The translations under genes and the position numbers were made by a program. From contig CAVUFN010000008.1 of the NCBI GenBank assembly GCA_963740765.1, positions 392,092-456,091 of the forward strand: 64,000 bases of DNA, written 5' to 3'. Numbering within the stretch: position 1 is the stretch's first letter; each line of letters opens with the position of its first letter. Of this stretch, positions 52,401 to 55,757 are shown one piece after another. The stretch comes from an uncultured Solirubrobacteraceae bacterium (GTDB lineage Bacteria; Actinomycetota; Thermoleophilia; Solirubrobacterales; Solirubrobacteraceae). Under the pieces are notes generated by a model. The model was not told the DNA's origin and searched no databases. It saw only the letters and a program-made list of their open reading frames with translations.

Positions 52401-53116
52401 AACTGATAGATACGACGGCCGTCCTCGGAGGCGATGAGCAGATCGCCCTCGGCGTAGCCCTTCAGCAGCTGGGCGGCCTTGTCGACCATGTGGCGGCCGG
52501 TTTCGGCGATGTAGACCGCGCCCGTCGGGTCCACGGCGACGCTGCGCGGGTCCAGCAGGGCGGACGCGGTGGCGGGGCCTTCGTCCTGGGAGGACCCGTT
52601 GCCGCCGCCGGCCACGGTGCGGATGGTGCCGTCGGGGTCGATCCGGCGCAGGCGGCCGGCGCCGTTGTCGATGAGCAGCAGGCCGCCGTCGGGGGTGATC
52701 GCCAGGCCCTGCGGTCGCACGATCCGGGCGGCCGTGGCCGCCTCGCCGTCCCCGTTGCCCTGGGCCGGGGCGCCGCCGCCCGCGATGGTGCCGATGCGGC
52801 CGTCGGTCCCGACGCGGCGCACGCGCCCGTTGCCGGTGTCGGCGATCAGCAGGTTGCCGTCCGCGTCGATGGCGAGCCCGCGCGGGGCGCGCAGGCGGGC
52901 GTCGGCGGCCGGGCCGCCGTCCCCGGAGAAGCCGGCGGTGCTGCCGCCCGCGACGGTGGTGATGTTGCCGTCGGGGCCGACGCGGCGCACGCGGTGGTGC
53001 AGCGTGTCGGCGATGTAGAGCGCTGCCGTCGGCCGCGACCGCGACCGCGGACGGCTCGGACAGGCGCGCGTCCGTGGCCGGGCCGTCGTCGCCGATGCCC
53101 GTGGATGGCGAGCCAC
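49466..53116 (-). CDS. RHS/YD-repeat protein, intact distal part (last NHL blades, YD shell, RHS core with DPxGL, 125-aa C-terminal cargo)
   Basis: NHL-type blades (LYIADTLHHRVRRVGPDGNITTVAG; LLIADTGNGRVRRVGTDGRIGTIAG). Many YD repeats (YGYDAQGRL, YAYDSDNRL, YTYDDGGNRTS). Core end is RDYDPAAGRWTARDP..INLYAYVGNDPASLRDPSGL. Meaningful translation in this frame starts near 53023; the track start at 53116 is spurious. Confidence 0.85.
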   Translation of the reverse strand: MARHPRASATTARPRTRACPSRPRSRSRPTAALYIADTLHHRVRRVGPDGNITTVAGGSTAGFSGDGGPAADARLRAPRGLAIDADGNLLIADTGNGRVRRVGTDGRIGTIAGGGAPAQGNGDGEAATAARIVRPQGLAITPDGGLLLIDNGAGRLRRIDPDGTIRTVAGGGNGSSQDEGPATASALLDPRSVAVDPTGAVYIAETGRHMVDKAAQLLKGYAEGDLLIASEDGRRIYQFNENGRHLRTRDALTGGIIHQFGYDAQGRLASVSDGDGVLLTIDRSDGSVALVARGGQRTELAISAAGNLTKVTNPAGEAVTLAYGAGGLLTGLEEPGGDDHTFSYDGEGRLTSDVGPTGYTQTLTRTKTANGQVVEHVTSQNRKTTYRYEELATGDIRRTVTDPAGGVTTSVRRTDGTVHLEQADGTTVDLTMEPDPRFGMQAPVAASEIETTPGPSPRTRTTTRSVSSTVDGTELQSRTESISVNSRTSQRVYTDDGDSGGTLTSTTPAGRQTVARLDEQGRIVEASKAAGTLPLETSYDARGRVFRVEQGDRSWTYGFDAKDRAITRTNALGQVVQFAYDDADRMTTMTTDGDRAWSYTYDDDGNRTSITTPLGRTYGFTFTPDDRVDTMSLPGPATGYDRAYSADRQLSSRTEPGGATQTWSYDAGARLAGISSPDSTAGFTYQDGTELLKEATWNTGGGAPEHTLAMTFQGRLPKSMTTDAGSYAYTPDNDHQLTEYTVSAGGDQRTYDIDRDADRRVVKHGPYTITRDSDTGEPRSIADGTTTLSEDHDGYGGLSERQLATGGTEHYTLKVERDDSGQVSQRTETVGGTEHVYTYAYDSDNRLKEVTKDGGSVESYTYDDGGNRTSGGAQYDAQDRLTKLGATTYAWDANGFLAGRGSDSFDYGVRGELLSATVGGTTVGYAYDAFGRRTARSQGGDTEKYLYGNPDDPFQLTGSVAPSGALTTYFYDDEGALHGFERGGKRYAVGADQVNSPVVVVDDAGTIVKRVERDTWGRVVSDSAGGFGLPVGYAGGIADPVTGLVRFGMRDYDPAAGRWTARDPAFFEGSPINLYAYVGNDPASLRDPSGLICIGMSGYLGIGGGFSLCADGNGVGACAELGVGLSGGVEADLTGSPENSDVGFAEANLKVGPAGVTVGGEWDDCGNWKAGVSVAAGPVSAGGSYGSAGLQGQVKVGAGLEVGAKAGVKSCRSFSF

Positions 53117-55757
53117 CGCCGGCGACCGTGCTGATCGTCCCGCCGGGCGCGACGCGGCGGATGCGGTTGGCGCCGGTGTCGGCGATGTACAGCGCGCCGT
53201 CCTCCGTCGCGGCCAGGCCGCGCGGGTCGGACAGAGCAGGCGCTCGCGGCGGGGCCGCCGTCGCCGGGGAAGCCGTAGGTGCCGTCGCCGGCGAGGGTGT
53301 CGATGGTCCCGCCGGGGGTCACGCGGCGGATGCGCTCGTTGCCGGAGTCGGCGACGTAGACGGACCCGTCGGCACCGTGGGCGACGGCCGTGGGCTCGTT
53401 GAGGTAGGCCTGGATCGCCGGGCCGCCGTCGCCGTCGAAGCTGGCGTAGCCGGCGCCGGCGTAGGGCTCGAGGACGGTCAGCTTGGAGGGGTCGACCGAG
53501 CGCTGCTCGCCGCCGCCGAGCAGGAGGGTGCGGGTCCCGGGGTCATAGGAGTGGTGCGCGTCCAGCGTCCAGCCGCCGAGGCCGAAGCCGCGCGCGTCGA
53601 GCGTGCCGACCGGGCGCGTGACGTCGTGCCCAGACGTGAAGTCGCTGCGCGCGCGCGGTCGCCGGTGATCGGCGTGCCGGAGAGGCGCGCCCAGCTGGAC
53701 GGCGAAGCTGCCCGGCGACTGGTAGACGGCGCTGGTAGCGGTAGCCGAGGCGGATCTTGGCGATCTGCGCGCCCTGGACGCGGCGGCCGTAGGCGTCCTG
53801 GCCGTCCCACACGACGGTAGCGCTGGGCGGCGGCGGCCTCCGCGGGCGTGAAGGAGCGCTTGAAGGTCTTGCCGGCGACGTCGACCTCGAGTTCGACGGA
53901 GAGTCGACGCTCGCGGGCAGCGGCCCGTCGGTCAGCGGGATGTCGAGGGTGCGCTCGGCAGTGCGGCCGGGGACGCGGTCCGAGCGGTAGACGAGCGCTC
54001 GCTCGTCCCGGTGATCGGGAGCTCCTCGCCGAGGATCTGGCTGTCGCAGAGGACGATCGAGCCGCCGCTGGCCGCAGTCGGGGTCACTCGGGTCGTCGGG
54101 CCCGCCGGGGCCGTCGGGGCCCGACCTGTGCCGGGCCCGGCGGCGTCGTGGCCGGGGCCGTAGGGGAAGTTGTAGTCCCACGGGGTGAAGTGGGTGACCT
54201 CGACGCGCCAGAGCGTGTCGGCCTTCTTGTAGAGCGTCGCCAGTTTGGCGCGCTCGGCATCGTCGATGCCCAGCCCGGCGTCGGCCGTGCCGTCGCCGTC
54301 CGTGTCGACCTGCGCCTTGCCGTCGGCGAGGGCGACGATCTTGATCACGCGCCCGTCCTTGGAGCCGACCCACTCCTCCTGCTCGCGGTCGTAGTAGCCG
54401 GCGGGGACCGCGCTCGCCGACGGGCAGGTCGAGGAAGTTGTCCAGGTAGGACGATGACCGGCTTGGTGAAGCGCACGTCCGTGGCGCCGGCGGCGACGGC
54501 GCTCGTCGACGGAGAACTCGGCGGCGTAGGTGTAGGCCGTGGTCGGCGGGAGCTGGCCGGGCATCGCGGCTCGAGGCCGTCCGCGCCTTGGGTGAACTCG
54601 GTCGAGCGGACCGTGAAGGTCTGGTCGGCCTTGCGCGGCGCTAGGCACCGTCGACCTCGGCGCGCGCGGCTGTCCCGGGGTCGAACAGCAGCGTCTGCGG
54701 TGCGCGTGCCGGCGCCGTCGGTGATCGTCGTGCCCTGCGCCGCGGTGATGCCCGGCGGGGCCGAGGTGTCGACGACGGTGCCGCTTGGTGTCGTAGGGCA
54801 CGAGCGACCATCGCGTCGACGTCGGCGTAGTCCTGCCACGGGGCGATCGACGAGCCGCTGCGCGGGGATGTAGCCCTCGCGCGCGAAGACGAGCGTGAGC
54901 GCGCCGCCGCCGTTGACGGCGATGTCGTAGCCGCCGTCCGCGCGGGTCGCCGTGCGGCCGAGCTCGGGGTGGTCGGCGACGGTGACGCGGACGCCGCCGA
55001 TCGCCGGTGCCGAGCGCGGTTGGTGACGCGGCCGCGCAGGACGGCGACGCGCTTGGCGGTGATGGTGCCCGCGGTCGACGTCCTTCTGGATCGCGTCGGC
55101 GCCGGTGTAGAGGAAGTCGGTGGCGGACTTCATCGACGCGCCGGTGTCGGTGGGCAGCGGTCCTGCCTTGGTCGCCGGGTCCGCGGCCGGCGCGTCGGTG
55201 GGTCCGGGGGCAGGCGGGCCGGACGGCGCGGGGGACGGGCTCGGGCTCGCGGTCGGCGCAGCGGTCGGCACCGTGGTGGGCGCGCTGGTGGGGGTCGCGG
55301 GCGCGGAGGTGGGGGCGGGCGTGATGACGGGCTTCGTCGCGGGTGGGACGCCGGGTTTCGCAGCGATGGCCAGCGCGCGCCGGGCACAGATGGACTTGAC
55401 CTTCCTGGCCTTCACGCACGCGAGCACCTGATAGGTGCCGGTGGCCGCAGCGGCCGGGATCGTCACGCCGGCCTTGAGCGTGCCGCTCTTGCGGGCCTTG
55501 ACCTTCTTCAGCGACTTGGTCGCGAGCACGATGTCGCGGGCGTCGCGCTTGGCATCGGCCGAGAGCAGCACGGTCGCCTTGACCTTGCTGAGCGTCTTGC
55601 GGGTGCTCTTGACCTTGATCTTGAAGGTCGCCTTCGAACCCGCCTGGGCCTGCGACGGGCCGGAGAGGCTGACCTTCGCGGCGGCGGCTCCGAGGGCAAC
55701 GGAGACGAGGAGAAGGCATGCCGCGACGGCGATGCTCAAAATGCGGACCCGTGACAT
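53010..55757 (-). pseudogene. N-terminal part of the same teneurin-like RHS gene (signal peptide, Lys-rich Ig/CARDB-like domain, PT-rich linker, TTR/carboxypeptidase-regulatory-like domain, plug region, first NHL blades), broken by about 19 frame changes
   Basis: ATG 55757 gives MSRVRILSIAVAACLLLVSVALGAAAA. The conserved peptides DFLYTGADAIQKDV / TITAKRVAVLRGRVTN / IGGVRVTVADHPELGRTATRADGGYDIAVNGGGALTLVFAREGYIPAQR / PWQDYADVDAMV / LVPYDTK / TVVDTSAPPGITAAQGTTITDGAGTRT / QTLLFDPGTAARAEVDG / FTVRSTEFTQGADG / AMPGQLPPTTAYTYAAEFSVDE / VPAGYYDREQEEWVGSKDGRVIKIV...VEVTHFTPWDYNFPYGP / ALVYRSDRVPGRT / TVVWDGQDAYGRRVQGAQIAKIRLGYRY / FGLGGWTLDAHHSYDPGTRTLLLGGGEQRSV...VYVADSGNERIRRVTPGGTIDTLAG follow one another colinearly but alternate among all three minus-strand frames. 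Confidence 0.75.

What the first reader, a model, noticed from the sequence alone, without database searches (positions are those of the whole stretch)
53010..55080. About 19 reading-frame switches confined to a 2-kb segment of the RHS gene, with none in the other 4.2 kb
Following the conserved peptides, the frame changes at about 55070, 55003, 54842, 54805, 54782, 54700, 54640, 54570, 54502, 54450, 54410, 54000, 53900, 53820, 53730, 53685, 53650, 53245 and 53023. That is roughly one change per 110 nt. Where I could reconstruct them (about 55070 and 53023), the changes look like single-nucleotide indels rather than homopolymer slips. One lies in a (GC)n run at 53641-53660. The amino-acid sequence between the switches remains highly protein-like, so there is little substitution decay. 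If indels fell at random along the 6.3-kb gene, the chance that all 19 land in this third is about (0.33)^19. The likeliest causes are a local assembly or consensus-quality defect (for example a low-coverage long-read patch), or a very recent, spatially focused mutational event. Either way, any annotation of this gene as an intact ORF or as a classic pseudogene should be treated with caution.
Basis: seen in the sequence. Interest (0 to 1): 0.6.

Follow-up and report, generated by a model that had tools for sequence, protein, structure and literature searches.

The report
Sequencing-error frameshift patch in RHS gene
The 19 to 21 frame switches in this 2-kb stretch of a large RHS toxin-like gene are really in the deposited sequence, but they are almost certainly single-base consensus errors of a patchy metagenome assembly, so the gene is probably intact in the organism.

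Summary
My own frameshift-aware protein-to-DNA alignment, run with four full-length relatives, finds 19 frame switches (21 with the closest relative) between window 53021 and 55076. It finds none in the remaining 3.55 kb downstream or the 0.68 kb upstream.

The corrected reading has no nonsense codon in three of four alignments. GC3 is 0.967, against 0.960 in the intact part. Identity to relatives is at least as high as in the intact part. So there is no substitution decay.

The pattern is not specific to this gene. A codon-usage frame model finds 907 unterminated frame switches in the 4.3-Mb genome, a metagenome bin, and 72% of them fall in 5% of the 2-kb bins. Affected genes include secA, an aldehyde dehydrogenase and a whole Mce operon. 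Two loci are present twice in the assembly, once clean and once full of one-base indels. The bias of about 2:1 towards extra bases is the same as in the RHS patch.

Verdict: a local consensus-error patch, not a real biological feature. The scan has met this artefact class on many other MAGs.

The parts
49466..55757 (-). Whole teneurin-like NHL/YD RHS gene. It is about 2096 codons long if read through. It is split by frame switches into about 20 pieces plus one long 3' ORF.
   Evidence: Frameshift-aware alignments to four ~2100-aa relatives cover it from end to end. Relatives are 2075-2121 aa.
53021..55076 (-). Error patch of 2056 nt with 19 (possibly 21) one-base-class frame switches, about 9-10 per kb. 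About 13-14 behave as an extra base and 6-7 as a missing base.
   Evidence: homology; codon-usage HMM; no homopolymer association; clustering P about 2e-8.
55077..55757 (-). N-terminal piece in a single frame: signal peptide, an Ig-like domain (weak NEW3/CARDB-like match) and a Pro/Thr-rich linker.
   Evidence: The Pfam match to NPCBM_assoc is weak (E = 0.0012, below the cut-off).
54849..55010 (-). Piece that encodes the teneurin TTR-like / carboxypeptidase-regulatory-like domain.
   Evidence: Pfam PF25020 TTR_TEN1-4, E = 8e-16.
53025..53655 (-). Two pieces that encode the first NHL repeats. They are split by the switch near 53238.
   Evidence: Pfam TEN_NHL and NHL on both pieces.
49466..53020 (-). 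Single-frame 3' part: the remaining NHL repeats, the YD shell, the RHS core ending in a DPSGL motif, and a ~125-aa Gly-rich C-terminal domain.
   Evidence: Pfam TEN_YD-shell (5e-49), RHS_repeat (1e-38) and TEN_NHL. No switch against three relatives.

Best explanation
The 2-kb stretch is a patch of unpolished, low-quality consensus in a metagenome-assembled genome. It most likely comes from long reads at a spot where few reads, or reads of a minor strain variant, supported the chosen path. Random one-base insertions and deletions were left in the consensus, about two insertions per deletion. They shift the reading frame about every 100 nt. The organism's real gene is most likely one intact ~2100-aa teneurin-like NHL/YD RHS protein. 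Shown here: the switches exist, they are of the one-base class, they carry no substitution decay, and the same defect fills other patches of the assembly, including loci that are also present in a clean copy. Inferred: the sequencing technology, and low local coverage or strain heterogeneity as the cause.
For: (1) There are 19-21 switches, all of the one-base class, and none in the other 4.2 kb.
(2) There is no decay. Three of four corrected paths hold no stop codon. GC3 is 0.967 in the patch and 0.960 in the intact part. Identity to relatives is 56-64% in the patch and 54-57% in the 3' part.
(3) Genome-wide, there are 907 unterminated same-strand frame switches. 72% of them lie in 5% of the 2-kb bins. 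53 bins hold 6 or more, where a Poisson model expects 0.01. Several contigs hold none.
(4) Homology confirms the switches elsewhere. An aldehyde dehydrogenase on C9 has 9 shifts. A Mce operon has 65 switches. secA on C15 has 7.
(5) The same locus occurs both clean and shifted. C10:385642-389726 has 10 switches, and its 96% duplicate on C22 has 0; they differ mainly by 1-nt gaps, 12 extra and 5 missing in C10. The secA copy on C15 is shifted, and the copy on C14/C7 is not. The shifted C15:0-146 kb duplicates the clean C14 plus C7.
(6) The ratio of extra to missing bases is the same everywhere: 13:6 in the patch, 5:2 in secA, 6:3 in the dehydrogenase, 12:5 in C10 against C22.
(7) Other isolated 1-2 kb patches lie inside otherwise clean contigs, in ordinary metabolic genes.
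(8) The genome is a bin: 94% complete, 4.6% contaminated, 30 contigs.
(9) The literature says that localized intra-population heterogeneity can leave parts of long-read metagenome data unpolishable (proovframe preprint 10.1101/2021.08.23.457338).
Against: This patch has no second, clean copy in the assembly, and no near-identical orthologue is public; the best is 56% identical. So no individual indel is proven false. The indels avoid homopolymers, which is not the classical Nanopore error signature. The technology is unknown. GC content does not predict the bad patches, so the proximate cause of this particular patch is inferred rather than shown.
Confidence: 0.88

Rival explanations
1. The gene is a genuine pseudogene. 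It is really inactivated in the organism and has accumulated about 20 small indels in its 5' third.
For: RHS genes are often duplicated and dispensable. An intact paralogue with the same downstream neighbour exists on C15, so loss could be tolerated. The net frame is not restored.
Against: Neutral decay long enough to fix about 20 indels should also bring many substitutions, nonsense codons, larger deletions and a drop in GC3. None of these is seen. Decay would not stop sharply at 53021 and 55076 while the other 4.2 kb stays perfect. The same pattern hits secA and dozens of unrelated genes in the same assembly.
Confidence: 0.06
2. A real, recent and spatially focused mutational burst produced many one-base indels in this segment only, for example error-prone repair synthesis across a 2-kb tract.
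For: The sharp boundaries and the absence of substitution decay are compatible with a very recent event. The read data needed to exclude it are missing.
Against: It would need the same process to act on about 80 other patches, including regions whose duplicate contig is clean. I know of no process that yields only +/-1 indels, outside repeats, at 1% density without substitutions (my own knowledge).
Confidence: 0.03
3. The frame tracing is an artefact of high GC content, and a single frame actually encodes the protein.
For: At 72-79% GC, long spurious ORFs occur in all frames.
Against: Four relatives and a homologue-free codon model all demand the same switches. Each piece is 55-65% identical to relatives only in its own frame.
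Confidence: 0.01

Closest known systems
Residual indel (frameshift) errors in long-read genome and metagenome assemblies (proovframe preprint 10.1101/2021.08.23.457338; Sereika et al. 2022, PMC9262707)
   Same: One-base indels that fragment otherwise well-conserved genes. They are patchy and tied to regions with too little coverage or local population heterogeneity. They are found by frameshift-aware alignment to distant proteins.
   Different: The errors here are not concentrated at homopolymers, unlike the classical Nanopore case named in PMC9262707. The sequencing platform of this bin is unknown to me.
Genuine bacterial pseudogenes formed by reductive decay
   Same: Multiple frame disruptions in a gene that relatives keep intact.
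   Different: There are no nonsense substitutions, no larger deletions and no loss of codon bias. The boundaries are sharp, and essential genes elsewhere in the same assembly are affected too.
Teneurin-like bacterial YD/RHS polymorphic toxin proteins (Pfam TTR_TEN1-4, TEN_NHL, TEN_YD-shell, RHS_repeat)
   Same: The domain order is signal peptide, Ig-like domain, TTR, NHL, YD shell, RHS core (DPSGL), then a short variable C-terminal domain. The length of about 2100 aa matches relatives.
   Different: No small immunity-like gene follows. Instead a 1453-aa secreted repeat protein without any Pfam match starts 12 nt downstream. The C-terminal domain has no family match.

Membership tests
Assembly/consensus indel artefact | All disruptions are +/-1-nt-class indels, with no nonsense codons or large indels | tested here: met
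   There are 19-21 one-base-class shifts. Three of four corrected paths hold no stop.
Assembly/consensus indel artefact | No substitution decay between the indels | tested here: met
   GC3 is 0.967 in the patch and 0.960 in the intact part. Identity to relatives is 56-64% in the patch and 54-57% in the intact part.
Assembly/consensus indel artefact | The same defect occurs in unrelated and essential genes of the same assembly, in patches | tested here: met
   (HMM). Homology checks cover an aldehyde dehydrogenase, a Mce operon and secA.
Assembly/consensus indel artefact | An independent copy of the same locus lacks the indels | tested here: inconclusive
   This is met for other patches: C10 against C22 and secA on C15 against C14/C7. 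No second copy or close orthologue of the RHS patch exists in the assembly or in public data.
Assembly/consensus indel artefact | Reads do not support the indels, or local coverage is low | not testable with these tools
Assembly/consensus indel artefact | Association with homopolymers (Nanopore-type errors) | tested here: not met
   The mean longest run near the switches is 2.47, against 2.77-2.79 at control positions. The errors look random and biased towards insertions.
Genuine pseudogene | Mixed lesion spectrum (nonsense codons, deletions of various sizes) and relaxed codon bias | tested here: not met
Programmed frameshifting or phase variation | One or a few sites at slippery motifs or simple-sequence repeats | tested here: not met
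   There are 19-21 sites. None lies at a homopolymer of 5 or more, and only one lies in a short (CG)n run.
Teneurin-like YD/RHS protein | YD-shell and RHS repeats, with NHL and TTR domains upstream | tested here: met
   Pfam TEN_YD-shell 5e-49, RHS_repeat 1e-38, TEN_NHL and TTR_TEN1-4 8e-16.
Teneurin-like YD/RHS protein | Cognate immunity gene directly downstream of the C-terminal toxin domain | tested here: not met
   The next gene is a 1453-aa secreted repeat protein with no Pfam match.

The most novel reading that the evidence does not exclude
The indels are real. A localized, very recent burst of +/-1 frameshift mutations, without substitutions, would have hit a 2-kb tract of an RHS gene in a natural population. 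That would point to an unknown tract-wise indel-generating process.
Probability: 0.03. Interest if true: 0.55.

Novelty: not a real feature. Interest (0 to 1): 0.08.

Why it matters
The finding matters only as a data-quality warning. The public gene call for this locus is a 1174-aa fragment, and the first 920 codons are lost to spurious ORFs. About 5% of this bin carries the same defect, including secA, a Mce operon and fatty-acid and glycogen genes. Pseudogene counts, pangenome analyses and metabolic reconstructions from this genome would therefore be wrong in those patches. The bin also mixes two related populations and contains chimeric contigs. None of this touches an open biological question.

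Tried and rejected
(b) A close orthologue to pin down each indel: relatives in the same genus are only about 67-74% identical in DNA. The best public protein is 56% identical. The genome-contig scan returned only 25%-identical relatives, and the window's own genome's records may have been left out of that list.
(c) GC-driven coverage loss as the cause: rejected. Bins with 6 or more switches have GC 0.730, against 0.721 for clean bins, and only 9% of bins as GC-rich as the patch are bad.
(d) Homopolymer slippage: rejected.
(e) A second copy of the patch within the assembly: none at 75% identity or more.
(f) Plain tblastn could not separate the frames, because gapped HSPs ran across them. I therefore wrote a frameshift-aware alignment.
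(g) One search aligned the wrong strand and was repeated. One search failed on coordinates and was repeated.
(h) The argument 'an essential gene is broken, so it is an artefact' is weakened for secA, because the bin holds a second, clean copy from the other population. I use it as evidence of clean and shifted versions of one locus instead.
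Full report
**What is there**

The window is 72-79% GC around the finding, so long ORFs occur in all six frames. 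On the minus strand a 1216-aa ORF (49466-53116) holds NHL repeats, YD/RHS repeats and an RHS core. Upstream of it, good protein-like sequence hops between the three minus-strand frames. The window is G000:C8:392092-456091. G000 is a 4.32-Mb, 30-contig genome rated 94% complete and 4.6% contaminated, which means it is a metagenome bin.

**Check of the observation**

The same genome holds an intact 2130-aa paralogue with the same architecture (C15:245147-251584). Plain tblastn blurred the frames. I therefore wrote a protein-to-DNA dynamic-programming alignment that allows frame shifts.

- Against window 52600-55800(-) it gives 19 switches, from about 55076 to about 53021.
- Three external full-length relatives from the protein database (P0002, P0003 and P0004; 2075-2121 aa; 53-56% identical) give 19, 21 and 19 switches at the same places.
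- The closest relative, P0003, adds a compensating pair near 54122 and 54067.
- As a control, the same relatives give no switch over 49466-53020 and none in 55077-55757.
- A homologue-free test also works. A seven-state frame HMM trained on the codon usage of 603 long ORFs of this genome recovers 14 of the switches.
- Under uniform placement, the chance that 19 events all fall in some window of 33% of the gene is about 2.4e-8.

About 13-14 switches behave as one extra base and 6-7 as one missing base. They do not sit at homopolymers.

**Decay or error?**

In the corrected frames there is no stop codon in three of the four alignments. GC3 is 0.967, against 0.960 in the intact 3' part. Identity to the three relatives is 56-64% in the patch, against 54-57% in the 3' part. 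A pseudogene old enough to hold about 20 indels should also carry many substitutions, some nonsense codons, larger deletions and a falling GC3. It does not.

**The rest of the genome**

The frame HMM finds 907 same-strand frame switches whose upstream frame is not closed by a stop. They are extremely patchy.

- 72% of the switches lie in 5% of the 2-kb bins.
- 53 bins hold 6 or more, where a Poisson model expects 0.01.
- Six contigs have none, and C1 and C12 have under 0.3 per 10 kb. All of C9, C15:0-146 kb and several parts of C10, C7, C6, C25 and C27 are saturated.
- Inside the 64-kb window, the only other switch is at 26577.

Homology confirms that these switches are real frame shifts.

- An aldehyde dehydrogenase at C9:6.6-8.1 kb has 9 shifts against a relative's ORF.
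- A complete Mce operon at C15:119.9-131.2 kb has 65 switches between well-formed YrbE and Mce pieces.
- GlgP, FabF, a UDP-glucose pyrophosphorylase, DnaJ/PrmA and secA are affected.
- Short isolated patches inside otherwise clean contigs also occur in ordinary genes, at C8:140.6-141.6 kb, C11:16.5-17.8 kb, C25:36.8-39.0 kb and C16:983 kb.

**Clean and shifted copies of the same locus**

A self-comparison shows that the assembly is partly redundant.

- C15:0-146 kb parallels C14 plus C7:0-92 kb at 78-95% identity, with many gaps.
- C23 parallels C10:501-539 kb.
- C22 parallels C10:381-396 kb.
- C28 is about 97.8% identical to C27.
- C2 is about 97% identical to C16:588-607 kb.

In the C10/C22 pair the flanks are 99.4-99.6% identical. 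The central 4 kb is 96% identical. There C10 has 10 HMM switches and C22 has none. The two differ mostly by 1-nt gaps, with 12 extra and 5 missing bases in C10. This is a direct analogue of the RHS patch: a short, error-rich stretch inside a long clean contig, at a spot where the population is heterogeneous.

secA shows the same thing. The C15 copy has 7 shifts against a relative's SecA. The copy split over the end of C14 and C7:89.5-92.3 kb has none.

The ratio of extra to missing bases is about 2:1 everywhere: 13:6, 5:2, 6:3 and 12:5. That points to one common error process.

**Mechanism**

The best reading is that the bin was assembled from error-prone long reads and mixes two related populations. 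Where the chosen path is supported by few reads, the consensus keeps random one-base indels. A low-coverage second population or a locally variable segment would both give such a path. An RHS locus is a typical strain-variable place.

The proovframe preprint states that localized intra-population heterogeneity can render parts of long-read metagenome data unpolishable (10.1101/2021.08.23.457338). Sereika et al. describe residual indels in Nanopore assemblies (PMC9262707).

The existence, type, clustering and genome-wide pattern of the switches are shown here. The sequencing platform and the local coverage are inferred. GC content is not the driver.

**What the gene is**

Read piece by piece, the gene is a teneurin-like bacterial RHS protein (sequence). 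It consists of:

- a signal peptide;
- an Ig-like domain and a Pro/Thr-rich linker;
- a TTR domain (PF25020, 8e-16);
- NHL repeats (TEN_NHL);
- a YD shell (PF25023, 5e-49) with RHS repeats;
- an RHS core ending in DPSGL;
- a ~125-aa Gly-rich C-terminal domain without a family match.

Full-length relatives of about 2100 aa are common in soil and sediment metagenomes. Pieces were searched apart.

**Limits**

No clean second copy or close orthologue of this patch exists. The case for this particular patch therefore rests on its internal signature and on the identical defect elsewhere in the assembly. I put the artefact at 0.88, a genuine pseudogene at 0.06 and a real focused mutational burst at 0.03.

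Earlier notes of this scan describe the same artefact class on many other MAGs. I did not test those notes.

**Verdict**

This is not a real biological feature. Interest is low, except as a warning about this genome's annotation.

Noticed in passing
window 26560-26610 (switch at 26577, minus strand): This is the only other unterminated frame switch that the HMM finds in the 64-kb window. Given the assembly's error profile, it is probably also a consensus error.
   Followed up: partly
window 45120-49478 (minus strand): A 1453-aa secreted protein starts 12 nt after the RHS stop. By eye it holds several similar long Gly/Thr-rich units, each with a ...WxGGxM... motif; I ran no repeat finder on it. 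It has no Pfam match at E<=0.01. The intact RHS paralogue on C15 is followed by a similar gene (C15:242001-245894), so the RHS gene plus a large repeat protein is a conserved pair in place of the usual small immunity gene.
   Followed up: partly
G000 contigs C15, C14, C7, C10, C22, C23, C27, C28, C2, C16: The bin is redundant and partly chimeric. C15:0-146 kb (error-rich) duplicates C14 plus C7:0-92 kb at 78-95% identity, while C15:150-353 kb is clean. C7 changes character near 92.3 kb, in the middle of secA. Two related populations seem to be merged in one bin and even within single contigs.
   Followed up: partly
G000:C15:119908-131172: A complete Mce (YrbE/MlaE permeases plus six MlaD-domain proteins) operon is present twice in the bin. 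One copy has 65 frame switches. The other lies on C7:12-23 kb, in a stretch that is almost free of HMM switches, and matches the first at 82-83% DNA identity.
   Followed up: partly
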